44,016 nt of DNA from a virus (IMGVR_UViG_3300038393_001495:1-44016), one strand, 5' to 3'. Shown: positions 14,790 to 43,216, numbered from the stretch's first letter. Notes: a model not told the origin generated them from the sequence alone. Translations and numbers: made by a program.

Positions 14790-14819
14790 AGTGTAAACGC
14801 GCCGTGGCACGCTTCGCAA
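14790..14819 (-). promoter_or_regulatory. host-type early promoter PE-14.8 (TTGCGA-N18-TACACT)
   Basis: Minus strand: TTGCGA AGCGTGCCACGGCGCGTT TACACT. Member of a five-copy family. Confidence 0.65.
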
Positions 14820-14883
14820 GTGAAGACGCGAAGAGGCCCCCAAGCGTCGCCGGATGGCGGGCTCGGGGGCCGGATGCGGGGCG

Positions 14884-14991
14884 GGTGTGTAGGAAGTGCA
14901 GGTTCTTCCTACATCTCCTATTCCTGTCTAGAGAGAGAGCGCCTAGAGAGGAAATAGAGAATGTAGGTAGTTCCTGCACTTCCTACACGGG
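14884..14991. repeat. 108-bp AT-rich palindromic element, copy A
   Basis: 97/108 identical to 37894..38001 by hand alignment. Perfect 16-bp outer inverted repeat gtgtaggaagtgcagg / cctgcacttcctacac. Starts 1 nt after stop 14992. Confidence 0.9.
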
Positions 14992-15219
14992 TCACTCCTC
15001 GGCGCCGGTCTCCTCGCTCGGCGTCACGTGCGCCGCGGCGAGGACGAGGGCCAGGAAGTCGAGGACGTGCCCGATGTGGGCGACGATGGCGGCGACCTGC
15101 GACTCCGAGGCGAAGCCGAAGCCCGTCGCGACGGCGCCGACCGTGCCGAGGAAGAGGTAGAGCGCGCGGCGCATCTCCGGGGAGAGGAACGCCGAGACGC
15201 GGCGGAGGAAGGCGAGCAT
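14992..15219 (-). CDS. holin-like membrane protein (75 aa)
   Basis: Two hydrophobic segments (LYLFLGTVGAVATGFGF, VLDFLALVLAAA) and an acidic tail. Last gene of the lysis cassette. Confidence 0.55.
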   Translation of the reverse strand: MLAFLRRVSAFLSPEMRRALYLFLGTVGAVATGFGFASESQVAAIVAHIGHVLDFLALVLAAAHVTPSEETGAEE

Positions 15220-15236
15220 GGAGGGAGTCCTTTCGG

Positions 15237-15470
15237 TCAGACGAAGCCGCCCGTCATGAAGTGGACGAGGAGCCACGTCATGAAGGCGAGGAGGAGGAAG
15301 CGCCGGAGCCGTACGGAGCCGGTCACGGGCGGGCGAGGCTTGCCGTTCTCGCCGACGCCGAACCATCGCCACACGTGCTCCGAGAGGGTGTCGCCCTCGC
15401 GCTTGGAGACGAGCGCGTAGCCCTCCAGCACGGCGAAGGCGCCGAGCCAGAGGAGCCAGAGCCACGTCAT
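15237..15470 (-). CDS. membrane protein, holin candidate (77 aa)
   Basis: MTWLWLLWLGAFAVL... and FLLLAFMTWLLVHF hydrophobic segments. ATGA overlap at 15467-15470. Confidence 0.55.
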   Translation of the reverse strand: MTWLWLLWLGAFAVLEGYALVSKREGDTLSEHVWRWFGVGENGKPRPPVTGSVRLRRFLLLAFMTWLLVHFMTGGFV

Positions 15471-15760
15471 GAGGTGACCTTCTGGACGATGGTCAGGGCG
15501 CCGCCGAGGACGGCGACGATGGACGTGCTCGCCGCGAGGAGTTGCGCCGGGGAGACCGTCTTCCGCTCCTCGACCGCCCGGAGGCGCGTGTGGGCGTCGT
15601 GCGGCATGTCGCGCTCCAGCCCCCGGACGCGGTTCTCGTGGTCGGTCAGCGTCTCGCCGTGGTTGTCGAGGCGCTGCGCCTGCTGCGAGGTGGCGAGGTC
15701 GAGTTTCGCTTCGAGGCGGATAGCCCAGGCGGGCATGCCCTCGTCGGTCGGGGTGCTCAT
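15467..15760 (-). CDS. lysis-cassette protein with C-terminal membrane anchor (97 aa)
   Basis: ATGA overlap with the endolysin stop (15757-15760). C-terminal LLAASTSIVAVLGGALTIV. Confidence 0.55.
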   Translation of the reverse strand: MSTPTDEGMPAWAIRLEAKLDLATSQQAQRLDNHGETLTDHENRVRGLERDMPHDAHTRLRAVEERKTVSPAQLLAASTSIVAVLGGALTIVQKVTS

Positions 15761-16776
15761 CGAGTGGCCTTCAGGTGGAGGGTGCGGAGGAGGAACGGGC
15801 CCGGGCTCGTGGCCCACGGCGTCACGCCGAGGCGCTTGTACGCGGCCCGGGTGGCGGCGGCGGTCGCCGTGCCGAAGTAGCGGTCCGCGGCCCGGGCGGC
15901 GGTCAGCCCGTAGCGGTTCGCCGTCTTCGCGCCGAGGTAGGTCCGGAGGGCGCGCTCGTAGGTGAGGACGCTCGCGCCGGAACGCCCGACGCGGAGGCTC
16001 GGGGTGTAAACGCTCGGGCTCGAGTTCGGCTTCGGCTTCGGCGTCACGACGGGGCGCGGCTTCGGCTTCGGCTTCGGAGCGGGCTTCGGCTTCGCGACGG
16101 TCGGCTTCGGGCTCGGCTTCGGCGCCGGAGCGGAGTAGCCGCTCGGGGGCGCCGTGACGACCGTCCCGGGCTGGACCACGTTCGCGTCCGGGATGCGGTT
16201 CCACGAGGCGAGCGCGGCGACCGAGACGCCGAGGGCGACCGCGGCCTTGCCGAGCGTGCCGCCCTTCGGGATGGTGAACGTCCGATGCTTCGCGGGCGCC
16301 GGGGCCTTCACGTCGAGACGGTTGTCGAACGCGCGGAGGATTGCGGCGGCGGTCGATCGGTTCCACGAGTCGCGGTCCGCGTGTCCAGCGAGGCCGGTCT
16401 CGCCGTCGCGGAACTGCTCGACCTGCGCCACGGCGAGCGGAGCCAGGTCGGGACAGTCGGGGTCGATGAGGTGGACGTGGTGGTTCCCGTCCCACCATCG
16501 CCCGAAGGTGAGGAGGAGGACGGAGCGGCCCGTGTTCACGAGCATGTGGAAGTCGGCGAGCGAGAGTCCGTCGGCCTCGATGTCGTAGACGCCGCCGAGG
16601 TCGTGCGTGCCCTTCGAGGCGTCGAGCCCCGGCGAGTAGCACCCTTGGATGGGCCGGAGGTAGACGGCGCCGGTCAGCGCCGCCCACGCCTTCAACTTCG
16701 GGACGGAGTGGACGCACACTCGGCGCCCGCGCCACGTCGTCGTCGCGCATCGGGGTCGGGAGGTGGAACCGCCCAT
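15757..16776 (-). CDS. endolysin: peptidase domain + LysM + Pro/Lys linker + PG-binding domain (339 aa)
   Basis: SKGTHDLGGVYDIEADG peptidase-like motif. LysM-like FTIPKGGTLGKAAVALGVSVAALASWN. PKP repeats. AGGAGG RBS before ATG 16776. Confidence 0.75.
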   Translation of the reverse strand: MGGSTSRPRCATTTWRGRRVCVHSVPKLKAWAALTGAVYLRPIQGCYSPGLDASKGTHDLGGVYDIEADGLSLADFHMLVNTGRSVLLLTFGRWWDGNHHVHLIDPDCPDLAPLAVAQVEQFRDGETGLAGHADRDSWNRSTAAAILRAFDNRLDVKAPAPAKHRTFTIPKGGTLGKAAVALGVSVAALASWNRIPDANVVQPGTVVTAPPSGYSAPAPKPSPKPTVAKPKPAPKPKPKPRPVVTPKPKPNSSPSVYTPSLRVGRSGASVLTYERALRTYLGAKTANRYGLTAARAADRYFGTATAAATRAAYKRLGVTPWATSPGPFLLRTLHLKATR

Positions 16777-16848
16777 GAGGGCCTCCTAGGGGTAGACGAG
16801 GAGCACGCCGCCGAGCGCGAACTCGACGGCGTGCGAAGGAAGTTGGGG

Positions 16849-17772
16849 TCAGGCGTCAGCCGGGAACGAGATGCCCGAGAGCGAGACGGAGGCGTTCGTG
16901 CCGGAGAACAGGGCGTAGATGGTGACGGAGCCGCCACTGAAGACACGCACGTCGGCGAGACCGCCACTCGCCGCGGTGACGAACTGGAGAGTGGAGTCCG
17001 GGCGGTAGCCCGTCGGGAGCACGAAGGGCGGCGAGGTGCTGCTCACGGTGCCGCTCCGAACGAGGCCCTCGACCGTGACGACGCCGTTCTCGCGCTTGTA
17101 GCGCGCCGAGGCGTAGCCCGAGCCGTAGTTCGCCCACGAGTAGCCGAGCGTCGGGTAGGTCCACGCCTGCGACTCGCGCCCGTCCGCCCATCGGTACGTC
17201 GCCGCCGACGAGTCGGCGTTGCGCGTCACGAGCGGAATCCACGTCGGCGGGACCGTGTAGTCCGCCGTGAAGTACGAGATACGGAAGTTGTCCGGGACGG
17301 AGGTCGTGGTCTGGCCGATGGGGGCCTCGTACCAAAGCGTCTGCCACGTGCCGAGCGGGACGATGCCGGAGGCGACGGTGCGAGAGGTGCTCGATGCGTC
17401 GCCGTAGACCGGGATGACCGTGCCGTCCGGGGGCTGCTCGATGTTCCAGTAGCCGCCCGGGTTCATCGGCCCGCGGCCCGTCCCGGTGTGGATGAAGCGC
17501 TGCGACCACGAGACGCCCGTCGAGGACGCCGTGCGGACGCCGCCCCCGGACAGGAGCGCCGCGAAGTTGCGGACGAGGAGTTCCCGGGCGCCGTTCACGG
17601 GCGACCCCAGGACCACGAGCGAGCGGTCGCGGAACTCGCACGCCACGCGGTCGCCGACGCCGAGCGCGTGACCGAGGTTGATGGGCGACGCGGTGACGGC
17701 GAGGTCTTCGCCGTCGAGGGTCACGGTGAGCGGGCCTGTTGTCGTCACGGTGCCGTAGCGGGTGGCAGGCAC
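16849..17772 (-). CDS. tail fibre / receptor-binding-like minor tail protein (307 aa, GTG start)
   Basis: Position after the tail hub genes. Gly/Ser/Thr-rich beta-type sequence. TAGTG 1-nt overlap at 17772. Confidence 0.55.
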   Translation of the reverse strand: MPATRYGTVTTTGPLTVTLDGEDLAVTASPINLGHALGVGDRVACEFRDRSLVVLGSPVNGARELLVRNFAALLSGGGVRTASSTGVSWSQRFIHTGTGRGPMNPGGYWNIEQPPDGTVIPVYGDASSTSRTVASGIVPLGTWQTLWYEAPIGQTTTSVPDNFRISYFTADYTVPPTWIPLVTRNADSSAATYRWADGRESQAWTYPTLGYSWANYGSGYASARYKRENGVVTVEGLVRSGTVSSTSPPFVLPTGYRPDSTLQFVTAASGGLADVRVFSGGSVTIYALFSGTNASVSLSGISFPADA

Positions 17773-27624: not shown

Positions 27625-27663
27625 GCGGATGTCCTTTCGGGGCGGGAGGTTTGGGGGCCGACG

Positions 27664-27705
27664 AGGGCCCGGAGCGTCACACGAGGCGTTTACACTCCGG
27701 GCCCT
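27664..27705 (-). terminator. hairpin terminator after the major capsid gene
   Basis: Perfect 11-bp stem agggcccggag / ctccgggccct. The 20-nt loop contains one copy of the dispersed 9-mer. Confidence 0.65.
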
Positions 27706-27719
27706 ACGTCAGCGGTCGG

Positions 27720-31768: not shown

Positions 31769-33550
31769 TCAGAGCGCGACCACGCGCCCTCGTGAGGCGC
31801 CGGTCTTCGCGTGCTTGTTGTTGTAGAGGCGCCAGAGCATCCGGGCGCCGACGGCGGCGACCGCGAGGTCGATCTTCCGAGCGCTCTCGCGGTGTTCCTT
31901 CATGAGGCCGATGCCGTACTTCCCGGGCGCGCGGCGCGCGTTCTTCACGTGCGCGCGGAGGGCTCGGGAGGCGTCATGGGCCAGGACTCCGGCGTCCACG
32001 TCCTCCACGAATCGCTCTGCGGCGGCGGTGAACTCGGCCTGCCTCGTCGGCGAGCGCATGTCCCAATTGACGGAGTGCTGCTTGTCGCCGGTCTTCGTCG
32101 CCCACAACTTCAGGCGGCGTTTGTAGAGGCGGTGCCACTCGTCCACGAGGGCTTCCCAATAGCGCTCGCCGCTCTCGTCGTCGCGGGTGTCGGACGGGTC
32201 GGCGAAGAACGCGACCGGGCGATAGACCTCGAAGACCTCGGCGACGCGGGCGTTTACACTCGCGCGGTCCACGCGCCACGGGCCCATCGTCTTCTCGTCG
32301 TAGCCCGGGGGCTTCTGCCAGACGCCGAGTTGGAAGACCTTCCCGTCCTTCGCGCGGCACGCCACGAGGGCGGTCGCGTCGTCGGACTTCGAGCCGTCGA
32401 AGAACACGAGGATGGTCTCGCCCGCGGCGAGTTCCTCACGGACGCCGAGGGCGTCGAACTTCTGCGGGTGGACCCAAGCGTCCTCCGCCGCGACGATCTG
32501 GTTGTACCAGAATCGCCGGGAGCGGCTCGGCGGGTTGCGTCGGTCGGCGATGGACTTCGCGATTCGCTTCACGTTCAGCCACACGGAGTCGCCACGGACA
32601 GAGGCGATCACGTCCGGCGCGGCCTCCAGCGTGAGGGGCGCGTTCGGCGGGGCCTCCAGCGAGTCGTACAGGAGGCCCGCGTCCACGGCGCGCCCGTCGA
32701 GGACCGCCTCGGCCTGCTCGCGGTCGCGCTCGGCCACGGAGTCGTGACCGGGCTCGTAGGCGTTCGTGATGCGGAGGGAGCGCGCGGCGCCGCCCTCGGA
32801 CTTCGAGGCGTTTCGCTCGATGACATCGGCCATCTCGTGCCCGGAGTTGTTCGCGAGCCAGTGGTGCGTCTCGTTCAGGAGGACGAACGAGGCGCGGGCG
32901 CCTTCGAGCGTCGTCGGCGACGAGGTGACCGCCTGCATGAGGGCCTGACCGTGGAGACCGTGGACGGTCTCCTTCTGGACCACGAGGTCGTAATCGGCCT
33001 TCGCGCGGTCGGAGATGAGGCGCGGGAGGAGGCGCATCGTGTTCTTGGTCTGTTCGAGCGACACGGCGGCGACTTGGACCCACGGCTCCGCGGCGGGCTC
33101 GCCGACGGGCTGCCCGTCCACCATGTCGCCGACGCGGCACGGGCCCGCGAGTTCAAACGTCGCGATGCCAGCGCCGAGCGGGTCTTTGCCGTGGCCCTTC
33201 AGCCTTTGGAACACGCCGTCCGAGTAGAGGAACTCGCCGGAGTCGTTCACGGCGTACCACCACAGGAGGAAGCGCGCTTGCTCCTCGGTCCAGACCCACG
33301 GCGTCTCGCGGTTCTTCTGGAGGTATGCGCCCGTCCAGGCGAGCATCTGCCAGCCGAGCGTCCGCTCCGGTAGGAGCCAGTGCTCGCCGTCGGTCTGCCA
33401 CGTCGGGCCGAGGAAGACGGGCGGGTACGGAAGTTCGCGGCGCTCGACCTTCGCGTAGGCGCGGCGCCGGTAGAACTCCTCGGCGGCGTCCATCTCGGCG
33501 CGGACGAAGGGGTCGATGTCCGTCGTGACGACGGAGAGAGACCGGGCCAT
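31769..33550 (-). CDS. terL: terminase large subunit (593 aa)
   Basis: Size, position, and acidic nuclease-type C-terminal half. ATG 33550 overlaps the terS stop by 1 nt (TGATG). Confidence 0.8.
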   Translation of the reverse strand: MARSLSVVTTDIDPFVRAEMDAAEEFYRRRAYAKVERRELPYPPVFLGPTWQTDGEHWLLPERTLGWQMLAWTGAYLQKNRETPWVWTEEQARFLLWWYAVNDSGEFLYSDGVFQRLKGHGKDPLGAGIATFELAGPCRVGDMVDGQPVGEPAAEPWVQVAAVSLEQTKNTMRLLPRLISDRAKADYDLVVQKETVHGLHGQALMQAVTSSPTTLEGARASFVLLNETHHWLANNSGHEMADVIERNASKSEGGAARSLRITNAYEPGHDSVAERDREQAEAVLDGRAVDAGLLYDSLEAPPNAPLTLEAAPDVIASVRGDSVWLNVKRIAKSIADRRNPPSRSRRFWYNQIVAAEDAWVHPQKFDALGVREELAAGETILVFFDGSKSDDATALVACRAKDGKVFQLGVWQKPPGYDEKTMGPWRVDRASVNARVAEVFEVYRPVAFFADPSDTRDDESGERYWEALVDEWHRLYKRRLKLWATKTGDKQHSVNWDMRSPTRQAEFTAAAERFVEDVDAGVLAHDASRALRAHVKNARRAPGKYGIGLMKEHRESARKIDLAVAAVGARMLWRLYNNKHAKTGASRGRVVAL

Positions 33551-33939
33551 CACTTCGCCCAACGGGCGGCGGCTGCCTTCCGGGCGGCGTCGCCGGGGTC
33601 AGCGCCAGCCGAGGCAGGGGCGACCTCCTCCGGGAGGCGGAGTTGCTTCAGGAGCGCGGCCCGCGCGGCGCGGTACGTGCGGAGTTCGGCGACGAGCGGG
33701 TGGATAACCGCCTGTCCCATCGAGCCCTTCGCCGTCATCGGGCGGTCCATCTCGGCCCACGCCGCGGCGAGGGCGTCGATCATGTCCGAGGTCCGGGCGG
33801 CGTCTTCGAGGACGGCGAACTCGTCGGGACGGAGGACGTACGGCGCGGGCGCGTCGTCGGCCCCGGCGATGGAGGTCCAGAGTTCGCGGCCCGCGGCGCC
33901 GAGGTCGGCGGGCATCTTGCGACGGGGAGCGTCGGGCAT
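33550..33939 (-). CDS. terS: terminase small subunit (P27-like, 129 aa)
   Basis: LGAAGRELWTSI...MGQAVIHPLVAELRTYRAA resembles P27-family small terminases. GAGGAGG RBS before ATG 33939. Confidence 0.6.
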   Translation of the reverse strand: MPDAPRRKMPADLGAAGRELWTSIAGADDAPAPYVLRPDEFAVLEDAARTSDMIDALAAAWAEMDRPMTAKGSMGQAVIHPLVAELRTYRAARAALLKQLRLPEEVAPASAGADPGDAARKAAAARWAK

Positions 33940-34776: not shown

Positions 34777-35045
34777 GGTCCGTCGAGGTGCTCGGTCACC
34801 ATCGGCTGAACCGCGGCGAGGATCATTGCGTCCGTGACGGCGCTCTCCTCGTAGCCCGGTCGGGGCTTGCCCGCGGCCACGGCGTAGGCGTAGGCGGCGT
34901 CCCATCCCGGCGAGCCCGAGAGGGCCCAGAGGTGAGCGTCGGCCCACTGGACGGGGCTCGGGACGCCCTGCGTCGCGGCGCACGCGGCGACACGGTTCCG
35001 GAGGTCAGAGTCCACGGCGAGCGCGGCTTGTGTGTTGTAGGACAT
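34773..35045 (-). CDS. hypothetical protein (90 aa)
   Basis: ATG 35045 after a GAAGGA RBS. First ORF downstream of the tRNA-like gene. Confidence 0.6.
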   Translation of the reverse strand: MSYNTQAALAVDSDLRNRVAACAATQGVPSPVQWADAHLWALSGSPGWDAAYAYAVAAGKPRPGYEESAVTDAMILAAVQPMVTEHLDGP

Positions 35046-35371: not shown

Positions 35372-35405
35372 TGAGGAATCCGCCACGGTTACGCCACGTG
35401 CTCAC
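35372..35405 (-). promoter_or_regulatory. phage-specific promoter-like box PM7 (candidate late-operon promoter; 5' box overlaps stop 35402-35404)
   Basis: Minus strand: GTGAGCACG-TGGCGTAACC-GTGGCGGATTCCTCA. No further box is seen between here and the lysis genes at about 15 kb. Confidence 0.55.
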
Positions 35406-35638
35406 GGCACGCGACGACAGGCGGAACAGACGCGCCGGAGACCATCGGCCTCCCGCGAGTCGAGGTGGAACTCGCTCGTGGGCTTCGCGACGCCGCACGA
35501 GGCGCACGTCTTCCGCACGCCCCGAGTCCAGGCCCGCCTACGGGCCAGGGCGGCGCCGAGGAGCGCCTCCACGCCCTCCGGGTCGCCGTCAGGATGACGG
35601 GTCGCCAGAGAGGCGCGGAGGCGGTCCTCCAGGCTCAC
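35402..35638 (-). CDS. zinc-ribbon protein (78 aa, GTG start)
   Basis: KTCASCGVAKPTSEFHLDSREADGLRRVCSACRR gives CxxC-x24-CxxC. GTGA overlap with stop 35635 of the repeat protein. Confidence 0.55.
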   Translation of the reverse strand: MSLEDRLRASLATRHPDGDPEGVEALLGAALARRRAWTRGVRKTCASCGVAKPTSEFHLDSREADGLRRVCSACRRVP

Positions 35639-37350
35639 GAGCGGGTCTTCAGCCCGAGGAGGAACTCGGCGAGCGCCGCCACGTCCGAGCCGAGGATGCC
35701 ACGGAAGCCCGACTTCGCGAGGATGTCCGACGCCTGCGCCGAGACCTCCAGCCGAAGGGCGTAGTCCTCGCGCGCCGTCTCGTCGCGGACCTCGAACGTC
35801 GGCGTGGCGCCCTTCACCTCGGGCGCCGGGGCGAGGGACGACGGCTTGAAGTAGTCGTAGTCGCCGTCCTCGAACTCCACGTGGTAGTCGCCGTCGGAGT
35901 CGAGCCCGCCCTTGACCTGCCCAGCGCGACCCTCGTAGTCCGTGAGGCCGCACTCGGTCGGGCCGGTCACGAGCACCTTGTCGCCGTCCTCGAAGACGAC
36001 CTCGGCCTCCACGACCTCGGGCTCCGGGGCCGGGGCCTCGATCTTCACGAAGGACTGCGGCGCGAGGCGGTAGCCCGCCGTGACCACGAGGCGCCCGAGG
36101 TGGTCCTCGCCGACGTGGCGGACCGTGTGCTCCTCGCCCACGATGGAGTCGCCGAGGAGCCCCGGCTTCCCGCTCGGGAGGATGTTCGCCGCGATGCGGA
36201 CGCGGTCGCCGACCTCGAACGTCGGGACGTACGCGGCGAGTTCCTCGCGCTCGAAGCCCCACGACTGGAGCGAGTAGTCGCCGTCGATCTTCACGGCGTA
36301 GTCGCCGCGGCCCTGCCCGTAGCCGCGGAGAGCGGTCACGGTGCCGGTCGCGCCCGGACCCCGGACCTCCGCCGCGAAGGGCGAGGAGAGGACCGTCACG
36401 CGGTCGCCGACGGCGAAGGACGGGGCGGTCTCGACCGTCTCGACCTCGGGCGTCTCCATCGAGAGGAGCGTCGCCCACGGGCCGACGGGGGCCTTCGACA
36501 GGCTCGACGCCGGGAAGTAGGACCACTGGCCCTCGCCCGGGAACTCCACCACGAAGTCGCCCTCGCGGTCCGGGCCCTCCGTGACCGTGCCGACGAGGCC
36601 CGCGTACTTGTCCGAGCCCGTGAAGTCGTCGCCGACGAGCACGCGGTCGCCCTTCGAGGGCACGTAGGCCGGGGCGGGCTCGACGGTCAGGAGGGCGAGT
36701 TCGGCCTCGCGGTAGCCCCAGGCACGCGAGCCGTTCCCGTCGAGGACGACGGCGTAGTCCGGGCGGGAGATGCCGGAGATGTCGTGGCGGTCGGTCGGCA
36801 TCGGGACGACCGTCCCGACGTTGCCCGCCTTGCGGTAGACGCCGACGTACGTCGAGGAGACGATGCTCACGCGGTCGCCCGGGACGAACTTCGGCGCCGG
36901 GACGAGGCACTCGGCGGCGACGGTCCAGTTGCCGATGCCGACGTTCCCGGGGATGGTCCATCCGTTCGTGACGGTCACCACGTCGCCGACCTTCGGGCGG
37001 GTCGAGTCCGCGTGGTAGTAGTCCGCGTGGTCGCCCATCCCGCCGACGTAGCGGTGGAAGACCGTGCCCGCCACCACGGCGCGGTCGCCCGGGGCGAAGG
37101 TGTGGACCTCGGGGTCCGGGACGTGGACCTTCAGGTCCACGAGGCGGACGGTCTGGCGCTTGCCGCCCTCGGTCGCCTTGAACTCCGCGGCGTCCGCGTG
37201 GCGGGCGTAGGAGGCGCTCGGCACGTCGAGGGAGATGCACTCCACGACCTCGCCGAGGTCGTAGTAGTGGCGGAGGCCGCTCGCGCTTCCGTCCGCGGTC
37301 ACGACGTAGCGCTCGCCGACGACGGGCAGGGCGGGGGAGGTGCTGCTCAT
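35635..37350 (-). CDS. 571-aa protein built of six or more tandem ~65-75-aa beta-barrel-like (KOW/SH3/Tudor-like) repeats
   Basis: Recurrent F-x-x-GD(R/K)V anchors: FAPGDRAVV, FVPGDRVSIV, SKGDRVLVG, FAVGDRVTVL, FEVGDRVRIA, FEDGDKVLVT. Each is followed by G..G.V and GD(F/Y).V.F segments. Own box PM8. Confidence 0.7.
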   Translation of the reverse strand: MSSTSPALPVVGERYVVTADGSASGLRHYYDLGEVVECISLDVPSASYARHADAAEFKATEGGKRQTVRLVDLKVHVPDPEVHTFAPGDRAVVAGTVFHRYVGGMGDHADYYHADSTRPKVGDVVTVTNGWTIPGNVGIGNWTVAAECLVPAPKFVPGDRVSIVSSTYVGVYRKAGNVGTVVPMPTDRHDISGISRPDYAVVLDGNGSRAWGYREAELALLTVEPAPAYVPSKGDRVLVGDDFTGSDKYAGLVGTVTEGPDREGDFVVEFPGEGQWSYFPASSLSKAPVGPWATLLSMETPEVETVETAPSFAVGDRVTVLSSPFAAEVRGPGATGTVTALRGYGQGRGDYAVKIDGDYSLQSWGFEREELAAYVPTFEVGDRVRIAANILPSGKPGLLGDSIVGEEHTVRHVGEDHLGRLVVTAGYRLAPQSFVKIEAPAPEPEVVEAEVVFEDGDKVLVTGPTECGLTDYEGRAGQVKGGLDSDGDYHVEFEDGDYDYFKPSSLAPAPEVKGATPTFEVRDETAREDYALRLEVSAQASDILAKSGFRGILGSDVAALAEFLLGLKTRS

Positions 37351-37400: not shown

Positions 37401-37433
37401 GGAGGAATCCGCCAGTCGCCGGATGCTGCTCAC
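37401..37433 (-). promoter_or_regulatory. phage-specific promoter-like box PM8
   Basis: Minus strand: GTGAGCAGC-ATCCGGCGA-CTGGCGGATTCCTCC (9-nt spacer), 50 nt upstream of ATG 37350 and after hairpin 37445-37475. Confidence 0.6.
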
Positions 37434-37497: not shown

Positions 37498-37800
37498 TCA
37501 GCCCCGGCGCACGCGCCGCTCGTGGTTACGCCGAAGCGCGGCGAACACGGCGTCCTTGCGGGCGTAGTCCTCGCGCTGCTCGTCCGCGGTCAGGAGCACG
37601 GCGTCGAGGGCGCCGTACGCGGCCCAGAGGCTCGCGTCGTCGGCGTAGGACGAGGCGCCGTAGGCCAGGAGTTCGTTCGCGATGCCGCGGGCCTCGGCGA
37701 GGAGGCGAACGGGGTCGGCGCACGTGTGGGCGTGCGAGCGGAGGTTCGCCTCGCAAGCGTGGCAGGAGGCGGCGGTCGTGGTGGCGGTCGTGGCGGTCAT
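37498..37800 (-). CDS. hypothetical protein (100 aa) with N-terminal Cys/His cluster
   Basis: ATG 37800 (MTATTATTTAASCHACEANLRSHAHTC...). Driven by PE-37.8. Confidence 0.6.
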   Translation of the reverse strand: MTATTATTTAASCHACEANLRSHAHTCADPVRLLAEARGIANELLAYGASSYADDASLWAAYGALDAVLLTADEQREDYARKDAVFAALRRNHERRVRRG

Positions 37801-37847
37801 GTCGGGCTCCTCTGCCCTCGGGGCCCCCGTGTGGGGCCGATGAGGAG

Positions 37848-37877
37848 AGTGTAAACGCGCGGTGGCACGGCGCACAA
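37848..37877 (-). promoter_or_regulatory. host-type early promoter PE-37.8 (TTGTGC-N18-TACACT)
   Basis: Minus strand: TTGTGC GCCGTGCCACCGCGCGTT TACACT. Confidence 0.6.
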
Positions 37878-37893: not shown

Positions 37894-38001
37894 GGTGTGT
37901 AGGAAGTGCAGGAAGTTCCTACATTCCCTATTCCGTACTAGAGAGAGAGTCCCTAGAGAGGTAATAGAGAATGTAGGTAGTTCCTGCACTTCCTACACGG
38001 G
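37894..38001. repeat. 108-bp AT-rich palindromic element, copy B
   Basis: 97/108 identical to 14884..14991. Ends 7 nt after the integrase stop codon (38009-38011) and lies 16 nt upstream of the -35 of PE-37.8. Confidence 0.9.
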
Positions 38002-38008: not shown

Positions 38009-39655
38009 CTACGGGGTCGTCTCCGGCGCTCCTCCGGCGTTGTGGCGCCGGGGTCCAGCGGGCGAGGTGCCGCCCGGAGGGTTCACCCAATGGATGAGCA
38101 CGCGCTCGCCCGGGTAGAAACGGGCCCCACGAGAGGGCGCACGGGTGACCGTCACGCGCTCGATGGCGAGACCGAGGAGGGCGCGACGTTCCTCGACGGG
38201 CAGGGCCTCCCATGCCTCGCGGCTCTGTGTCATGTCGAGGAGGGGCGTCATGTCGCCCTCAGGGCCCGGGAGCGTCGCGAGAGATGCTCGGGCCTCGGCT
38301 ACCCGGGCCCGGAGCGTCGGGAGGCGCTGCGCCGCCTCGTCCTTCGTCATGAGCCCCGAGGCCATGAGGTCCAGGACGCGGGCGAGGTCCGCCTCGAAGC
38401 GCGCGAGCACCTCCGCGAGGCGGTTCCGCTCCGTCGCCGCCGCGGGGTCCACGCGCGCCGCCCATCGACGGGCCACTTCGGCGAGGAGTTCGACGCGGTG
38501 CGGGTCTTCGGCCTCGTCCTCCGGGTCGATGGCGAGGCGGCGGAGGAAGGCGTCCACCACGGCATCGTCGGTCCGCCGCTCGGGCGCGTTGAAGCCGTCG
38601 CACGTCGTCCCGGCGCCCCGGGAAGCGCACGAGTAGGAGCGGTGCCCGAGGCGGTTCCCGTTCACGCGCGCGATGCGCCCACACGAGGCGCATCGGATGA
38701 GGCCGCGGAGGAGCGTCGAGGGCCCGCCGCCCGTGCCGCCCCGGGCGCCGTGACCGCGCTCGCCCCGCCTCTCGTCGTGGAGGGCCAGGACGCGGGCGCG
38801 CTCGGCCTCCGTGATGACGCCCGCGCCGACGGAGACCGGGAGGCCCTCCTCGTTCAGGTAGACATCGGCGACGTTCGCCCATCCGCCCGAGGGCGTCTTG
38901 CGCCGGAGCGACTGTAGTCCCGCGAAGCCCGGGGCCTTCAGGAGTTCGCGGATGGACGACGCCCGCCACTCGCCGCCTCGGGACGCCTTCACGCCCTCGA
39001 CGTTCAGCGTCCGGGCGATGGAGTAGGGCGAGATGCCGTCGAGGGCCATCTCGGCGATGCGCCGCGCGAGGGCGTACGTCTCCGGGTCGTGCTCCAGCCG
39101 ACCGTCCTCCGCGCGCCGGAGCCCGAGCGGCGGTTTCCCGCTCTGCCAGCGCCCCGCCTCGCGGGCGTAGCGGCGGGCGCGGGAGACGCGCTCGGAGAGT
39201 TTCTCGGCCTCCTCCCGGGCGACCTCGGCTCGGACGATGAGGGACAGGCGGGCGCGCTCGTCGCCCGTGTCCGTGCCGTCCACGCCGAGGACGCGGCGGT
39301 TCTTCCCGACGTGCCGCTCGGCGAGTTCGCCCGCCTCCACGGCGCCCTTGCGCGTCGCGCGGTCGAGGCTCCAGACGATGAGCGTGCGGAAGTCCTCGCC
39401 GCCGTCGAGGTCGCGGAGGGCCTCCTCCCAGACCGGGCGGGCCTTGCGGGAGTGGCGGCTCGCGCCCGTGCCCTCGCGCTCCGCGTAAACTCGGGTGACC
39501 TCCAGCCCGACGCGGGCGGCGAGGGCTCGGCAGTCGGCCTCCTGCTCACGCATCGAGCGCCCGAGGCGGTGCGTGTCCTTCGCGTTCTTGTGCGAGCGGC
39601 GAACGTAGATGGCGGCGGCGGAGTCCGGCGAGGCCGGGAGCGGTGAGAGCGTCAT
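38009..39655 (-). CDS. int: large serine recombinase (integrase, 548 aa)
   Basis: N-terminal resolvase-type catalytic region AAIYVRRSHKN...REQEADCRALA...LIVWSLDRATRKG. Long C-terminal domain with a Cys cluster CASCG...SYSCASRG...C. Confidence 0.85.
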   Translation of the reverse strand: MTLSPLPASPDSAAAIYVRRSHKNAKDTHRLGRSMREQEADCRALAARVGLEVTRVYAEREGTGASRHSRKARPVWEEALRDLDGGEDFRTLIVWSLDRATRKGAVEAGELAERHVGKNRRVLGVDGTDTGDERARLSLIVRAEVAREEAEKLSERVSRARRYAREAGRWQSGKPPLGLRRAEDGRLEHDPETYALARRIAEMALDGISPYSIARTLNVEGVKASRGGEWRASSIRELLKAPGFAGLQSLRRKTPSGGWANVADVYLNEEGLPVSVGAGVITEAERARVLALHDERRGERGHGARGGTGGGPSTLLRGLIRCASCGRIARVNGNRLGHRSYSCASRGAGTTCDGFNAPERRTDDAVVDAFLRRLAIDPEDEAEDPHRVELLAEVARRWAARVDPAAATERNRLAEVLARFEADLARVLDLMASGLMTKDEAAQRLPTLRARVAEARASLATLPGPEGDMTPLLDMTQSREAWEALPVEERRALLGLAIERVTVTRAPSRGARFYPGERVLIHWVNPPGGTSPAGPRRHNAGGAPETTP

Positions 39656-39677
39656 GCGGGCATCGTACGCGAGTTGC

Positions 39678-40527: not shown

Positions 40528-40728
40528 ATGGTTGAACGCGGCACGAAGCGACGGAACGGGCCGGTCTCGACCGTCGGACGGAGACTCACGGCGCACGGGC
40601 TGGACCTCCTGCCCGTCGAGGTGCGAGAGCGCGTCGAGGCCGAACTCGCCCGAGGCGGTCGCGAGGCGTGGGTCATGGCGCCGGACGACGGGCGCGTCTA
40701 CGTGGAGATACGCAACGCGAAGGCGTGA
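40528..40728 (+). CDS. only convincing plus-strand gene: small basic protein (66 aa), regulator candidate
   Basis: GGGAGGGG RBS lies 6 nt before ATG 40528. Divergent from the membrane-protein/int unit. Ends at the convergent terminator. Confidence 0.6.
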   Translation: MVERGTKRRNGPVSTVGRRLTAHGLDLLPVEVRERVEAELARGGREAWVMAPDDGRVYVEIRNAKA

Positions 40729-40745
40729 GCCTCGCAGAGACGCGA

Positions 40746-40779: not shown

Positions 40780-40811
40780 CGTCTGCGCCCGCGAGCGGGG
40801 CGGGTGGAGCG

Positions 40812-41090: not shown

Positions 41091-41173
41091 GGCGGGCCTC
41101 TCTCTTCGAGGTGGAACGGACAAGGGGCGCCGTGCGCCGGGGCGAGGGCCAGTGTAGCCCCCGCCCCGGGCGG

Positions 41174-41563
41174 TCAGAGCGCCGCCTCGAAGGACTCGCG
41201 CGTCTCGTAGCCGTGGATCGAGCCCTGCCACTCGACGGCGACGCCGACCTTCGCGGCCCGGGCCATGATGGCGCGGTAGCGCTTGACGCCGGTCTCGTTC
41301 GCCGAGTTGCCCTTCACGGCGGCGAGTTTCGTCTTCGAGTAGACGTAGTAGTAGGCGATGCCGCCCGTGGCCTTGTAGTCGGCGCCGATGCCGAAGACCT
41401 CCACGACGCGGAAGAGGTGCGCCTTCGGGAAGAGGGCGGCGAGGGCCTCGGCCTCCTCGCGCGTCGCGACCTTCGCCGAGAACTCGACGCCCGCGGGGCG
41501 GTCGAGGTAGGTCCAGGCGCGGACGGAGAGGGTGTTCGGGGCGGTCAGGTTGTGGTTCGACAT
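41174..41563 (-). CDS. hypothetical early protein (129 aa)
   Basis: ATG 41563 behind PE-41.6 and the conserved GAGGCCAGAGGAGGCC cassette. Confidence 0.65.
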   Translation of the reverse strand: MSNHNLTAPNTLSVRAWTYLDRPAGVEFSAKVATREEAEALAALFPKAHLFRVVEVFGIGADYKATGGIAYYYVYSKTKLAAVKGNSANETGVKRYRAIMARAAKVGVAVEWQGSIHGYETRESFEAAL

Positions 41564-41600
41564 CGGGGGCCTCCTCTGGCCTCGTTGGGGTGATGAGGAG

Positions 41601-41630
41601 AGTGTAAACGCCTCGTGGCACGGTGCGCAA
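41601..41630 (-). promoter_or_regulatory. host-type early promoter PE-41.6 (TTGCGC-N18-TACACT)
   Basis: Minus strand: TTGCGC ACCGTGCCACGAGGCGTT TACACT. Confidence 0.6.
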
Positions 41631-41676
41631 CACGAAGGGCCCCCGCGTGTCGCGAGGGCCCTCCGGGCGGTTCGGG

Positions 41677-42270
41677 TCAGGCCCGCTCCATCCGCTCGTC
41701 GCAGCACGGGCACTTCGGCTCGCCGTAGGCGTCGAGCCACTTCGCCGTCGTGCGAACGATGTAGCCCGTCTCGGGGCACTGGACCTTCAGCATCCGCGTG
41801 CCCTGCTTCGGCTCGCCCGCCTTGCCCGCCGCGGTCACGAGGGCGGCGTGCGGGTAGTCGCCGAGGCGGTCCGCCACGAGGCCCGAGAGCGTCGCCTTCA
41901 GGTCGTCGCCCGCGACGGTCGCCGTCATCGCGCCAGTGAGGCCGATGGCCTTCGCCATCTTCGCGAAGGGGCCCTTGTGCCCGTTCTGGCAGTCATCGAC
42001 CGCGTGGATGAGTTCGTGGGCCAGGACATCGAGCACGCGGGCGGCGTCGTCCAGCACGGGCGAGATGAAGAGGTTCGCCACGCGGTCCTTCGCGGCGCCC
42101 GTGCTCCAGCACTGCCCGATGACGTTGTTCTTCGAGCCGCGGCCCCCGGGCCACCCGACCGAGACGCGGACGGCGGGAAGCGTGATGTCGGCGGGGGCGA
42201 AGACGACCTCGCCGAGCGCCTCGACGGCGGCGACGAGCCACTCCTCGCGGGTCTGGAAGTTCGTGCTCAT
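41677..42270 (-). CDS. SprT-like zinc metalloprotease-domain protein with C-terminal zinc ribbon (197 aa)
   Basis: HELIHAVD (HExxH) and C-terminal CPETGY...CPCC. ATG 42270 behind PE-42.3. Confidence 0.6.
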   Translation of the reverse strand: MSTNFQTREEWLVAAVEALGEVVFAPADITLPAVRVSVGWPGGRGSKNNVIGQCWSTGAAKDRVANLFISPVLDDAARVLDVLAHELIHAVDDCQNGHKGPFAKMAKAIGLTGAMTATVAGDDLKATLSGLVADRLGDYPHAALVTAAGKAGEPKQGTRMLKVQCPETGYIVRTTAKWLDAYGEPKCPCCDERMERA

Positions 42271-42318
42271 GGTGGGCCTCCTCTGGCCTCGTGGCCCGCG
42301 GTTGGGGCCGATGACAGG

Positions 42319-42348
42319 AGTGTAAACGCACCGTGGCACGGTACGCAA
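42319..42348 (-). promoter_or_regulatory. host-type early promoter PE-42.3 (TTGCGT-N18-TACACT)
   Basis: Minus strand: TTGCGT ACCGTGCCACGGTGCGTT TACACT. Confidence 0.6.
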
Positions 42349-42390
42349 ATCGAGAACGGGCGAGCCTCGGAGAGAGGCCCGCCCGCTCGG

Positions 42391-42480
42391 TCAGGAGCGC
42401 CGGAAGATGGCGCGGAGGATGTCGCCGACGAGCACGCCCATGAGGTCGGGCTCGGGCTCCAGGTCGTCGGTCCAGAGCAT
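42391..42480 (-). CDS. small acidic peptide (29 aa)
   Basis: MLWTDDLEPEPDLMGVLVGDILRAIFRRS. TGATG 1-nt overlap with the upstream stop. Below the track cutoff. Confidence 0.35.
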   Translation of the reverse strand: MLWTDDLEPEPDLMGVLVGDILRAIFRRS

Positions 42481-42776
42481 CACGAGGCGACGACCTCGAC
42501 GGCGAAGAGGTCGCGCCGGAGCGTCCGCTCGCGCCCGTCCTCGAAGCGGACCCGCGCATAGCCCGCGCCGGTCGGACGGCACTTCGCGACGATGCGCTCG
42601 CCGGTCGCGTAGTCCGCGAGGAGTTCGACGGGCTGGCCGCGGTAGGTGAGGCGGGTCACGGGAGCCTCCTCGGGCTTCGGGGCGGGGCGGGGGCGGTCGT
42701 ACTCGGCGGGGCGGCGGAAGATGCCCCACGCGATAGCCGCGATGGTGACGAAGACGTAGACGCCGTGAATGCTCAT
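42480..42776 (-). CDS. membrane-anchored hypothetical protein (98 aa)
   Basis: N-terminal MSIHGVYVFVTIAAIAWGIF hydrophobic segment. Conserved RBS cassette upstream. Confidence 0.6.
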   Translation of the reverse strand: MSIHGVYVFVTIAAIAWGIFRRPAEYDRPRPAPKPEEAPVTRLTYRGQPVELLADYATGERIVAKCRPTGAGYARVRFEDGRERTLRRDLFAVEVVAS

Positions 42777-42866
42777 TGGTGGCCTCCTCTGGCCTAGGTG
42801 TAAACGGGTAGTGGCTCACTCCGAGGGTGGAAGGGAGGGGCCCCGGATGGAGCCCCTCCCGCAAGG

Positions 42867-43139
42867 TCAGCGGCGGCGCTTGCGCGCGTCCGCGTCCGTC
42901 CAGGGCTTGCCCGAGCGGAGGAGCACGGTCACGAGGACCGGGCGACCCTTGCGGCGGGCCACGACGTAGGCGATGCCGCCGCGCACGTAGCGGAGCCCGT
43001 CCTCCGAGGGCTCGATGACCTCGGGCGCGAGGAGCGCCTTCGCGAAGTCCTCCGGCGTCACGTCGCGGCGGGCCATCTTCTCCTCGGCGTGCGCCGAGAT
43101 GGTGACGAAGCGGAGTTCGTCGCGCTCGATGGGGTTCAT
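42867..43139 (-). CDS. DUF4258-like (BrnT-type toxin fold) protein (90 aa)
   Basis: ISAHAEEKMARRDVTPEDF...GGIAYVVARRKGRPVLVTVL resembles the H-A-x-x-R-M-x-x-R-x-(I/V) signature. ATG 43139 behind PE-43.2. Confidence 0.45.
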   Translation of the reverse strand: MNPIERDELRFVTISAHAEEKMARRDVTPEDFAKALLAPEVIEPSEDGLRYVRGGIAYVVARRKGRPVLVTVLLRSGKPWTDADARKRRR

Positions 43140-43186
43140 GTGGGGCCTCCTCTGGCCTCGGCGCCGTGGTTCGGCGCGGTAGGACG

Positions 43187-43216
43187 AGTGTAAACGCGCC
43201 GTGGCACGGCGCGCAA
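43187..43216 (-). promoter_or_regulatory. host-type early promoter PE-43.2 (TTGCGC-N18-TACACT) with perfect 17-bp palindrome in the spacer
   Basis: Minus strand: TTGCGC GCCGTGCCACGGCGCGTT TACACT. Palindrome gcgccgtg-g-cacggcgc at 43196-43212. Confidence 0.65.

What the first reader, a model, noticed from the sequence alone, without database searches (positions are those of the whole stretch)
14790..43216. Five nearly identical host-type early promoters with a palindromic operator in the spacer and a conserved RBS cassette
Minus-strand sequences:
- TTGCGC GCCGTGCCACGGCGCGTT TACACT (43187-43216)
- TTGCGT ACCGTGCCACGGTGCGTT TACACT (42319-42348)
- TTGCGC ACCGTGCCACGAGGCGTT TACACT (41601-41630)
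- TTGTGC GCCGTGCCACCGCGCGTT TACACT (37848-37877)
- TTGCGA AGCGTGCCACGGCGCGTT TACACT (14790-14819)

All five fit TTGACN-N17/18-TANNNT. Conservation runs through the whole 18-nt spacer. The spacer holds a palindrome (best copy gcgccgtg-g-cacggcgc, 43196-43212), which is the classic position for a repressor operator.

Three of these promoters (PE-41.6, PE-42.3, PE-43.2), and gene 42480..42776 which lacks one, are followed by the same GAGGCCAGAGGAGGCC cassette just before the ATG, at plus-strand coordinates 41568-41583, 42275-42290, 42781-42796 and 43143-43158. PE-37.8 carries a degenerate variant of it at 37804-37819. The copy at 14.8 kb ends 6 nt before its ATG, so that mRNA would be leaderless.
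Basis: partly seen in the sequence, partly recalled or inferred. Interest (0 to 1): 0.62.

Follow-up and report, generated by a model that had tools for sequence, protein, structure and literature searches.

The report
Repeated phage promoter cassettes with built-in operator word
Five near-identical control cassettes in a temperate actinobacterial phage are very likely ordinary host-type promoters, and their -10 box sits inside a 10-letter DNA word that many phages carrying one zinc-protease-like gene scatter over their genomes, which gives a testable lead to the still unidentified repressor of this phage group.

Summary
Five 30-bp copies lie on the coding strand (chance expectation 0). Each follows a strong terminator hairpin and precedes a gene.

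They fit an actinobacterial sigma-A promoter: TTGNNN, an 18-nt spacer, TACACT, then an invariant A 7 nt downstream.

The "operator" reading is only partly right:
- The 17-bp palindrome is perfect in one copy only. Across 13 copies in three sister phages only CGTGCCA(C) is fixed.
- The fully invariant block is GCGTTTACACTC. This is the most over-represented word of the genome (20 copies, half inside genes).
- The same word is the most enriched one in nine other actinophages (Arthrobacter AZ, Microbacterium EH, Streptomyces UNTPL). There it overlaps TTGCG(C/T)-type promoters at -35, in the spacer, at -10 or at +1, in either orientation. That is operator geometry.
- The word tracks a SprT-like protein, whose gene here is driven by one of the five promoters.

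This scan already found the word/SprT link on other DNA; I re-derived it independently.

The "RBS cassette" is a small hairpin presenting the Shine-Dalgarno sequence, supported by compensatory changes. The leaderless reading at 14.8 kb is supported.

No transcript data could be obtained.

The parts
43187..43216 (-). P1 promoter copy 1: TTGCGC-N18-TACACT. -35 at 43211-43216, best palindrome at 43196-43212, word GCGTTTACAC at 43188-43197, -10 at 43187-43192. Predicted start is the A at 43180. Drives the DUF4258 gene 42867..43139.
42319..42348 (-). P1 promoter copy 2 (TTGCGT-N18-TACACT). Predicted start is the A at 42312. Drives the SprT-like gene 41677..42270.
41601..41630 (-). P1 promoter copy 3. 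Predicted start is the A at 41594. It has a short leader without the first hairpin and drives 41174..41563, a gene unique to this phage. In sister phages G1 and G2 the orthologous promoter reads TTGCCA-cGTGTAAACGCaccgtgg-TACGTT, with the word inverted inside the spacer.
37848..37877 (-). P1 promoter copy 4 (TTGTGC-N18-TACACT). It lies 16 nt after the 108-bp palindrome that follows the integrase gene. Predicted start is the A at 37841. Drives 37498..37800, a gene unique to this phage.
14790..14819 (-). P1 promoter copy 5 (TTGCGA-N18-TACACT). The ATG at 14783 lies 6 nt after the -10, so a leaderless mRNA for the Cys-rich 113-aa protein 14442..14783 is predicted. The whole promoter-gene-terminator module is absent from sister phage G1.
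43144..43159 (-). SD-presenting hairpin cassette GAGGCCAGAGGAGGCC (stem GGCC/GGCC, loop AGAGGA). Other copies are at 42275-42290, 41568-41583, 42781-42796 (1 mismatch) and 37804-37819 (GGGC/GCCC, a compensatory variant).
43160..43178 (-). 5'-proximal leader hairpin, shown for copy 1. It is present in copies 1, 2 and 4 and in their orthologues. Stem sequences differ between copies but still pair.
43232..43270 (-). Terminator-like GC hairpin directly upstream of copy 1 (16-bp stem; the folded 74-nt stretch has -42 kcal/mol, z -4.8). Equivalent hairpins are at 42354-42388, 41633-41665 and 14835-14871. Copy 4 is preceded by the 108-bp palindrome at 37894-38001.
41677..42270 (-). SprT-like zinc-metalloprotease gene with a C-terminal zinc-ribbon-like domain. 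It is the candidate reader of the word and is transcribed from P1 copy 2.
42798..42805 (-). Word copy (GTTTACACC) plus cassette in front of gene 42480..42776. There is no TTG at -35 and no final T in the -10, so it is promoter-less or a decayed copy. The arrangement is kept in G2.
1628..1657 (-). Sixth sigma-A-like promoter, TTGCAC-N18-TACTCT, upstream of the sigma-like gene 633..1466. It has neither the word nor CGTGCCAC.

Best explanation
The five repeats are housekeeping (sigma-A type) promoters of a temperate siphophage. The phage has a phiC31-like gene layout and groups with Arthrobacter Cluster AZ and Microbacterium Cluster EH phages.

Each repeat is one part of a modular cassette with this order:
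1. an intrinsic terminator;
2. the promoter: -35 TTGCGY, an 18-nt spacer, -10 TACACT;
3. a start at an invariant A 7 nt downstream;
4. a 5' hairpin;
5. a 4-bp hairpin that holds the Shine-Dalgarno sequence in its loop;
6. a small gene.

Two further conserved elements lie under the RNA polymerase footprint.
- The first is GCGTTTACAC, which contains the -10. It is a copy of the word CGTTTACACG that this phage and many others scatter over their whole genomes.
- I infer that a phage protein binds this word and shuts the promoters by occlusion. The best candidate is the SprT-like protein made from the 42.3-kb copy, which would then also repress itself.
- The second element is CGTGCCAC(G) in the spacer. 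It is specific to this phage lineage and may bind a second, lineage-specific regulator.

The cassettes also act as exchange points: the genes behind them differ between sister phages.

What the sequence shows: the repeats, their placement, the conservation pattern, the covariation in the leader, and the distribution of the word across phages.

What is inferred: transcription starts, the timing of expression, any protein binding, and the identity of the binder.
For: Promoter identity
- Five copies, against none expected by chance.
- They are five of only six intergenic TTGNNN-N16-19-TANNNT matches in the genome. All six are on the coding strand with an 18-nt spacer.
- Each follows a 12-16-bp GC hairpin; the folded upstream stretches have -31 to -42 kcal/mol and z -3.6 to -4.8.
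- In 13 copies from three phages that are 90% identical overall, the invariant positions are TTG, CGTGCCA, GCGTTTACACTC and the A at +7. Neighbouring positions vary.
- The -10-N6-ATG spacing recurs in G2 and twice in SuMoo; Zeta1847 has N7.

Leader
- Two hairpins carry compensatory changes: GGCC/GGCC, GGGC/GCCC and GUCC/GGAC.

The word
- GTTTACAC occurs 20 times against about 0.25 expected, 16 of them as GCGTTTACAC.
- 17 of 20 sites are kept in G1. The other three lie in segments that G1 lacks.
- It is the top-enriched 8-mer in G1, G2, SuMoo, Powerpuff, KeAlii, IAmGroot, Zeta1847, Sue2 and UNTPL (15-39 copies each).
- It has 0 copies in seven related or comparator phages.

Variable placement on TTGCG(C/T) promoters
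- Over the -10 here.
- Inverted in the spacer, or supplying TAAACT as the -10, in SuMoo, IAmGroot and Zeta1847.
- Just after the -10 in AZ phages.
- Over the -35 in UNTPL.
- In G1 and G2 the orthologue of the 41.6-kb promoter keeps the hexamers and the spacing but carries the word inverted.

The binder
- SprT-like is the only protein of this phage found in all word-bearing genomes, including the otherwise unrelated UNTPL.
- A word copy sits just upstream of the SprT-like gene in 10 of 10 actinophages.
- SprT-like phages of cyanobacteria and proteobacteria carry the palindromic sister word CGTTTAAACG, again just upstream of the gene in 3 of 4.
- SprT-like proteins with a divergent C-terminus go with no word.
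- A natural frameshift in the SprT-like gene separates clear-plaque Liebe from turbid Maureen (10.1101/2025.05.26.655371).

Modularity
- The P1-gene-terminator unit at 14.8 kb is missing from G1.
- The genes behind copies 3 and 4 are unique to this phage.
Against: - There is no transcript or binding evidence of any kind.
- The -35 matches TTGACA in only 3 of 6 positions.
- The promoter-borne words end in T (here) or are TGTTTACACA (AZ phages). They differ from the dispersed consensus CGTTTACACG, so affinity at promoters may be low.
- Half of the word copies are inside genes and in both orientations. A promoter operator does not explain them, so the word may serve another purpose.
- SprT-family proteins are known as DNA-dependent proteases, not as sequence-specific repressors.
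- Word-bearing phages such as UNTPL, Pan1 and R26L may be lytic, so the system is not simply a lysogeny switch.
- The sixth promoter, for the sigma-like gene, has neither element. The cascade would therefore not be fully silenced by this route.
Confidence: 0.6

Rival explanations
1. One reading: the main control element is the 17-bp palindrome in the spacer. A dimeric CI-like (or MerR-like) repressor binds it, and the -10 is just a -10.
For: - CGTGCCA is invariant in 13 of 13 copies, although it is not a polymerase contact.
- The best copy is a 9+1+9 palindrome centred in an 18-nt spacer.
- There is one A-T/G-C compensatory pair, at positions 7/19.
- Other lineages also show lineage-specific symmetric sequence around the -35, for example CTTGCGCAAG in Powerpuff.
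Against: - The outer arms are broken in 11 of 13 copies, and the right arm (CGG) is among the most variable positions.
- A 4+1+4 core is short for an operator.
- CGTGCCAC is not enriched outside the promoters.
- It is essentially absent from SuMoo, Powerpuff and the other relatives (0-4 copies each, near chance).
- No HTH or MerR-type protein was found among genes shared by the three phages that carry it.
Confidence: 0.2
2. The 30-mer is conserved because a phage-specific polymerase specificity factor reads it. That factor would be the sigma-like protein 633..1466, so these would be phage-type rather than host-type promoters.
For: - The phage encodes a sigma-like protein with region 2 and a region 4-like C-terminus. 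AZ homologues resemble RpoS in predicted structure.
- Whole-length conservation is typical of phage-polymerase promoters.
Against: - The sigma-like gene occurs in five phages with zero word copies, and no homologue was found in word-rich UNTPL, which still has TTGCGT-N18-TACCTT with the word.
- The hexamers fit the actinobacterial housekeeping pattern.
- A second, very different repeated box (CTGGCGGATTCCTC, 8 copies before replication and other genes) is the better target for a phage sigma.
- One P1 copy heads the early region, upstream of the sigma gene itself.
Confidence: 0.08
3. The promoters are real but are not 'early' lytic promoters. They are moron-type or lysogeny promoters that express single accessory genes and the regulator from the prophage. 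The word marks the chromosome for a purpose unrelated to transcription and merely supplies AT-rich -10-like hexamers in a 71% G+C genome.
For: - Each unit is promoter + one small gene + terminator, the classic moron layout.
- The cargo is accessory and variable between sister phages.
- The word in either orientation is one base from TANNNT: TACACT or TAAACT.
- Half of the word copies are intragenic.
- Word-bearing phages include probably lytic ones.
Against: - In AZ phages and in part of the SuMoo promoters the -10 is a separate hexamer, yet the word is still kept inside the promoter.
- The copy at 14.8 kb sits exactly where the early/replication arm begins.
- A word copy upstream of the SprT-like gene in 13 of 14 phages points to feedback control.
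Confidence: 0.12

Closest known systems
phiC31 early promoters and CIR operators (Ingham 1993; Wilson 1995; Smith 1999; cited from my own knowledge, papers not held)
   Same: - Temperate actinophage with a serine integrase and almost all genes on one strand.
- Shared dNMP kinase, exonuclease, RDF, primase/helicase and PolA.
- Repeated similar promoters in an early region punctuated by terminators.
- An operator word dispersed over the whole genome. The top-enriched word of phiC31 is its CIR palindrome CTACTCACGTGAGTAG, about 15 sites.
   Different: - No homologue of the phiC31 repressor c.
- No GTTTACAC in phiC31.
- The CIR is a perfect 16-18-bp palindrome, mostly intergenic, and not visibly built into a conserved promoter.
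- Here the word is a 10-bp near-palindrome, half of its copies are in genes, and it forms the -10 itself.
Stoperators of Cluster A mycobacteriophages (L5 gp71; Brown 1997, own knowledge; mentioned in PMC3203893)
   Same: A short asymmetric site present in tens of copies across the genome. One copy overlaps an early promoter. The proposed role is silencing of transcription.
   Different: Stoperators are 13 bp, lie in short intergenic gaps, and are oriented with transcription. Here sites lie in both orientations and inside genes. No gp71-like HTH repressor was found.
Start-Associated Sequences (SAS/ESAS) of Cluster K mycobacteriophages and Cluster EF Microbacterium phages (PMC3203893, PMC7302621)
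   Same: An unusually conserved 13-16-nt block over the ribosome-binding site, a few nt before the start codon, in the non-structural arm, in front of unrelated genes. SAS GGGATAGGAGCCC and EF GGGAAAGGACCCC have the same G-rich/C-rich arms around AGGA as GGCC-AGAGGA-GGCC here.
   Different: The sequence differs. Here compensatory arm changes indicate a stem-loop, which the SAS papers did not propose. Here the element comes with a recognisable promoter rather than a 17-bp inverted-repeat ESAS.
PeSL cassettes of T4-type phages (Arbiol 2010) and morons (Juhala 2000), own knowledge
   Same: An early sigma-70-type promoter plus stem-loop, repeated in front of small variable genes. The repeats act as joints for gene exchange, and the units are promoter-gene-terminator.
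   Different: A different phage group and a different sequence. Here the promoter additionally carries the genome-wide word and a lineage-specific spacer motif.
SprT-like protein / CGTTTA(C/A)ACG word association
   Same: The same word, the same SprT-like gene, and a word copy in front of that gene. I re-derived this here from independent calls (78, 84, 100, 107, 108).
   Different: This window shows how the word is wired into a family of sigma-A-type promoters, and that its place in the promoter shifts between lineages. No publication describing the association was found.

Membership tests
Housekeeping sigma-70/sigma-A type promoter | -35 TTGNNN and -10 TANNNT separated by 16-19 nt | tested here: met
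   All five are TTG(C/T)GN-N18-TACACT. Only 3 of 6 positions match E. coli TTGACA, so the E. coli-type scan finds none.
Housekeeping sigma-70/sigma-A type promoter | Intergenic, co-oriented with and upstream of a gene; rarer than chance elsewhere | tested here: met
   Five of only six intergenic matches to the loose pattern, all on the coding strand. Each lies after a terminator hairpin.
Housekeeping sigma-70/sigma-A type promoter | Transcription start 6-8 nt after the -10, shown experimentally | not testable with these tools
Indirect support comes from the invariant A at +7 in 13 of 13 copies and the -10-N6-ATG spacing kept in G2 and SuMoo.
Repressor operator overlapping a core promoter | Conserved sequence beyond polymerase contacts inside the -35 to +1 region | tested here: met
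   CGTGCCA and GCGTT are invariant in 13 copies while flanking spacer positions vary.
Repressor operator overlapping a core promoter | Dyad symmetry maintained across copies | tested here: inconclusive
   Three inner pairs hold in nearly all copies. Pairs 4-7 are often broken, and there is about one independent compensatory event.
Repressor operator overlapping a core promoter | Cognate DNA-binding regulator identified and binding shown | not testable with these tools
   No HTH repressor was found by Pfam or PHROGs. SprT-like is a candidate by phyletic pattern only.
phiC31 CIR / repressor c system | Homologue of repressor c | tested here: not met
   tblastn of phiC31 proteins finds no repressor homologue. 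The 717-aa protein at the syntenic position is a ribonucleotide reductase.
phiC31 CIR / repressor c system | CIR palindrome CTACTCACGTGAGTAG | tested here: not met
   The CIR palindrome is not among the over-represented words of this window, which are all forms of GTTTACAC. GTTTACAC is absent from phiC31.
L5-type stoperator system | Asymmetric site, one orientation relative to transcription, in intergenic gaps | tested here: not met
   14 sites on the coding strand and 6 on the other. About half are inside coding regions.
SAS-like start-associated element | Conserved block over the RBS a few nt before the start of several unrelated non-structural genes | tested here: met
   Five copies lie 4-5 nt before the ATG of five different genes. 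The sequence differs from the published SAS.
SprT-like / CGTTTA(C/A)ACG word system (undescribed in the literature searched) | Word is the top-enriched k-mer of the genome | tested here: met
   20 copies against about 0.25 expected.
SprT-like / CGTTTA(C/A)ACG word system (undescribed in the literature searched) | SprT-like gene with C-terminal KQxTRMxKxxC..GYxxRxTxKW motif, preceded by a word copy | tested here: met
   Gene 41677..42270 has the motif. P1 copy 2, which contains the word, lies directly upstream of it.

The most novel reading that the evidence does not exclude
The SprT-like zinc-metalloprotease is the missing immunity and early-shut-off regulator of the AZ/EH-type temperate actinophages.
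- It binds the word over the -10 (or the -35, spacer or +1 in other lineages) of the P1 promoters, including its own.
- Its protease domain provides a DNA-activated self-inactivation switch for induction.
- The five cassettes here would then be the operator-promoter set of a new kind of phage repressor.
Probability: 0.3. Interest if true: 0.85.

Novelty: new variant of a known kind. Interest (0 to 1): 0.58.

Why it matters
Repeated early promoters with operators are ordinary in phages. The wiring here, however, bears on an open question.

Three papers state that Cluster AZ and EH phages form lysogens or look temperate, yet no repressor can be found: PMC7302621, PMC8758107 and bioRxiv 10.1101/2025.05.26.655371.

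This window and its cultured relatives now offer:
- a defined promoter family;
- a precise candidate operator, CGTTTACACG, with its position mapped in four lineages;
- a lineage-specific second motif;
- a candidate binder whose gene sits under one of the promoters.

All of these can be tested with EMSA, reporter fusions and immunity assays in laboratory strains.

The compensatory changes in the SD cassette also suggest a structural explanation (Shine-Dalgarno sequence in a hairpin loop) for the unexplained start-associated sequences of other actinophages.

Tried and rejected
- **Host or prophage search.**
  - The exact promoter motif is in no reference bacterial genome.
  - A SprT-based search of genomes returned only beta-proteobacterial loci.
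  - The host therefore remains unknown, and host-wide word frequency could not be tested.
- **E. coli-type promoter and terminator scan.** No promoters were found, because the -35 matches only 3 of 6 positions. Terminators have T-poor tails.
- **phiC31 repressor homology.** None.
- **Sigma-like protein as reader of the word.** Rejected: it is present in five word-free phages, and no homologue was found in UNTPL.
- **DUF7169 protein (1723..2058) as reader.** Rejected on the same grounds.
- **'Any SprT-like gene implies the word'.** Rejected. Dismas, Armstrong, Katzastrophic, Franklin22 and Bordetella CN1 have SprT-like genes but no enrichment of the word (0 or 1 copy). Their C-terminal domains differ.
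- **HTH or repressor search in small proteins by Pfam and PHROGs.** Nothing found.
- **Rfam.** Only the tRNA, so the leaders are not a known RNA family.
- **Literature searches.** Searches for the word and for GTTTAAAC+SprT gave only unrelated hits, mostly primers and cloning sequences. The phiC31 genome paper was not held under the id I tried.
- **CGTGCCAC as a second dispersed word.** Not enriched.
- **Antisense T-ending word copies as promoters.** The copies at 27688 and 32252 have no TTG at -35.

Full report
**What the window is**

- The 44,016-bp window is a whole IMG/VR virus record. A 127-bp terminal repeat marks a circular assembly.
- G+C is 71%, and all clear genes lie on the minus strand.
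- Genes identified:
  - large serine integrase, 38009..39655;
  - sigma-like protein, 633..1466;
  - PolA, primase/helicase, exonuclease, dNMP kinase, ribonucleotide reductase, small and large terminase, holin;
  - SprT-like protein, 41677..42270.
- Gene order matches phiC31 and, more closely, Microbacterium phage SuMoo and Arthrobacter Cluster AZ phages.
- Two IMG/VR sister phages are about 90% identical to it: G1 (41.6 kb) and G2 (28 kb, partial).

**Check of the observation**

- The five 30-mers are exactly where stated, against zero expected by chance.
- The cassette GAGGCCAGAGGAGGCC is confirmed, with one coordinate off by one.
- The hexamers fit TTGNNN-N18-TACACT, not TTGACN.
- The loose pattern TTGNNN-N16-19-TANNNT occurs only six times in intergenic DNA on either strand: these five plus TTGCAC-N18-TACTCT before the sigma-like gene. 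All six are on the coding strand with an 18-nt spacer.

**Anatomy of a cassette**

- Copies 1, 2, 3 and 5 lie a few nucleotides after a 12-16-bp GC-rich hairpin with a T-poor tail. The folded upstream stretches have -31 to -42 kcal/mol and z -3.6 to -4.8. Copy 4 lies 16 nt after a 108-bp palindrome that follows the integrase gene (stretch -67 kcal/mol, z -10.7).
- I aligned 13 copies from the three sister phages.
  - Invariant: TTG, CGTGCCA, GCGTTTACACTC, and an A exactly 7 nt after the -10.
  - Variable: -35 positions 4-6, the first three spacer bases, and the three bases after CCA.
- The invariant A is the expected start point.
- In the 14.8-kb copy and its G2 orthologue this A is the A of the ATG.
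- The same -10-N6-ATG spacing recurs in SuMoo at the first early gene and at gene 59. Zeta1847 has N7 at its SprT-like gene.
- This supports both the leaderless reading and the assignment of the hexamer as a real -10.

**The leader**

- From the predicted start, the leadered copies fold into two small hairpins.
- The 'degenerate' 37.8-kb variant (GGGC/GCCC) and a G2 copy (GUCC/GGAC) are compensatory changes that keep the stem.
- The first hairpin also keeps pairing with different sequences.
- The cassette resembles the start-associated sequences of Cluster K (GGGATAGGAGCCC) and Cluster EF (GGGAAAGGACCCC) phages, whose function is unknown.
- No Rfam family matches.

**The palindrome**

- The full palindrome exists in one of the five window copies.
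- Across the 13 copies only the inner GTG-C-CAC (plus usually C/G) is kept.
- The outer pairs are mostly broken, and the right arm is among the most variable positions.
- CGTGCCAC is not enriched outside the promoters (8 copies, 3.7 expected) and is essentially absent from more distant relatives.
- It is therefore a conserved, lineage-specific spacer motif. Evidence that it works as a symmetric operator is weak.

**The -10 is part of a genome-wide word**

- GCGTTTACAC(T/G) occurs 16 times with at most one mismatch, against 0.08 expected.
- GTTTACAC occurs 20 times: 14 on the coding strand and 6 on the other. About half are inside genes, where it forces rare codons.
- 17 of the 20 sites are kept in G1, one of them inverted. 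The other three lie in segments G1 lacks.
- At 90% identity an 8-mer would survive by chance about 42% of the time (my own calculation).
- The word is the most over-represented 8-mer in G1, G2, SuMoo, Powerpuff, KeAlii, IAmGroot, Zeta1847, Sue2 and Streptomyces phage UNTPL (15-39 copies each).
- It has no copy in BaileyBlu, SunnyD, SansAfet, Dismas, Armstrong, Halsey and phiC31. The consensus is CGTTTACACG(C).
- In phiC31 the equivalent top word is its known operator palindrome.

**Where the word sits in promoters of other lineages**

All these phages have promoters with the same -35, TTGCG(C/T), and a TANNNT -10. The word moves between lineages:

| Lineage | Position of the word |
|---|---|
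| This phage | over the -10 (GTT-TACACT) |
| SuMoo, IAmGroot, Zeta1847 | inverted, either in the spacer (TTGCGC-gaggcGTGTAAACGCgg-TAGGGT) or supplying the -10 itself (GTG-TAAACT) |
| AZ phages (Powerpuff, KeAlii, Sue2) | directly after the -10 (TAGACT-GTTTACAC) |
| UNTPL, and before the SuMoo sigma-like gene | over the -35 (TTGCGTGTAAAC) |

- In G1 and G2 the orthologue of the 41.6-kb promoter keeps the hexamers, the 18-nt spacing and the downstream CTCC(C/T)CATC, but carries the word inverted in the spacer.
- A site that always lies within the polymerase footprint, at any position and in either orientation, is what a repressor operator looks like. It is not what an activator site or a polymerase contact looks like.

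**Who reads the word**

- The sigma-like protein does not track the word.
- The SprT-like protein is the only protein of this phage found in all word-bearing genomes, including UNTPL, which shares almost nothing else with it.
- A word-bearing promoter lies directly upstream of the SprT-like gene in 10 of 10 actinophages.
- SprT-like phages of other phyla have the palindromic sister word CGTTTAAACG as their top-enriched word: Pan1 (16 sites), R26L (20), Arya (7) and Persinger (4). A copy lies 20-80 bp before the gene in three of the four.
- SprT-like proteins with a different C-terminal domain go with no word: Dismas, Armstrong, Katzastrophic, Franklin22 and Bordetella CN1.
- A preprint reports that clear-plaque Liebe differs from turbid Maureen by a frameshift in this gene. 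It also reports that the AZ repressor is still unidentified. PMC8758107 and PMC7302621 say the same for AZ and EH phages.
- After deriving this link I found that earlier reports of this scan, on other genomes, reached the same word/SprT link. No publication describing it was found.

**Modularity**

- The promoter-gene-terminator unit at 14.8 kb is absent from G1. There the terminator is followed directly by the second type of repeated box.
- The genes behind copies 3 and 4 have no counterpart in G1 or G2, although the promoters do.
- G2 has an extra copy.
- The cassettes therefore behave like the promoter/stem-loop joints of T4-type phages, or like morons (comparison from my own knowledge).

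**Likely logic**

1. The host polymerase starts at the five P1 promoters and at the promoter of the sigma-like gene.
2. The sigma-like protein plausibly serves the eight CTGGCGGATTCCTC boxes that precede the replication genes and other units (not tested further).
3. A word-binding protein, most likely SprT-like, then closes the P1 promoters and its own.
4. The CGTGCCAC motif may add lineage-specific control.

Every step after promoter identity is inference.

**Limits**

- There is no transcript or binding data.
- The host is unknown.
- The intragenic word copies remain unexplained by a pure operator model.

Noticed in passing
window 2090-2103, 4385-4398, 6832-6845, 8491-8504, 10119-10132, 14356-14369, 35373-35386, 37402-37415 (all minus strand): A second repeated box, CTGGCGGATTCCTC, is preceded by GTGAGCAGC at variable distance. 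It has 8 copies against 0.5 expected. They lie before replication genes, the 571-aa repeat protein and the tRNA/cos region. This is a candidate promoter class for the phage sigma-like protein. The exact box is absent from G1 and G2, although G1 has a diverged form.
   Followed up: partly
window 14884-14991 and 37894-38001: Two 108-bp lower-GC palindromes are 90% identical (folded stretch -67 kcal/mol, z -10.7). Each lies upstream of a P1 copy, one after the lysis genes and one 7 nt after the integrase stop. They contain four (A/G)TGTAGG(A/T)AG sites. SuMoo has an element with the same central sequence but different outer repeats, just 3' of its own, only 25% identical, integrase (L014, upstream of its gene 65).
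   Followed up: partly
window 1628-1657 (-): A sixth sigma-A-like promoter, TTGCAC-N18-TACTCT, lies about 160 nt upstream of the sigma-like gene. It lacks both the word and CGTGCCAC, and its spacer holds a direct repeat.
   Followed up: partly
window 6905-6925 (-); G2 8668-8686: Two word copies are arranged head to head (TGTAAACGGCGTTTACAC; a near-perfect 19-bp palindrome in G2). They lie just before the terminator and box preceding the primase/helicase gene.
   Followed up: no
window 27650-27710 (+): An antisense word copy (GCGTTTACACT) sits in the loop of a terminator-like hairpin (GGGCCCGGAG...CTCCGGGCCC) after the major capsid gene. It is kept in G1 and has no -35.
   Followed up: partly
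window 39653-39667 (-): TACGAT lies 6 nt before the integrase ATG, so the integrase mRNA may be leaderless. No TTG -35 is present.
   Followed up: no
window 40528-40728 (+): This is the only plausible plus-strand ORF (66 aa, basic N-terminus), convergent with the unit driven by P1 copy 3. It is present in G1 (68% identity) but not detected in G2, and it matches no family.
   Followed up: partly
L037 (Powerpuff) 34890-34940 and four other promoters: In AZ phages the -35 sits in the centre of a palindrome (A)GACTTGCGCAAGTC(T). The promoter-borne words are TGTTTACACA, whereas the dispersed ones are CGTTTACACG.
   Followed up: partly
window 35635-37350 (-): The 571-aa protein after P1 copy 4 and its box is not the large terminase, which is 31769..33562. 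It has no family match and only partial counterparts in G1 and G2.
   Followed up: no
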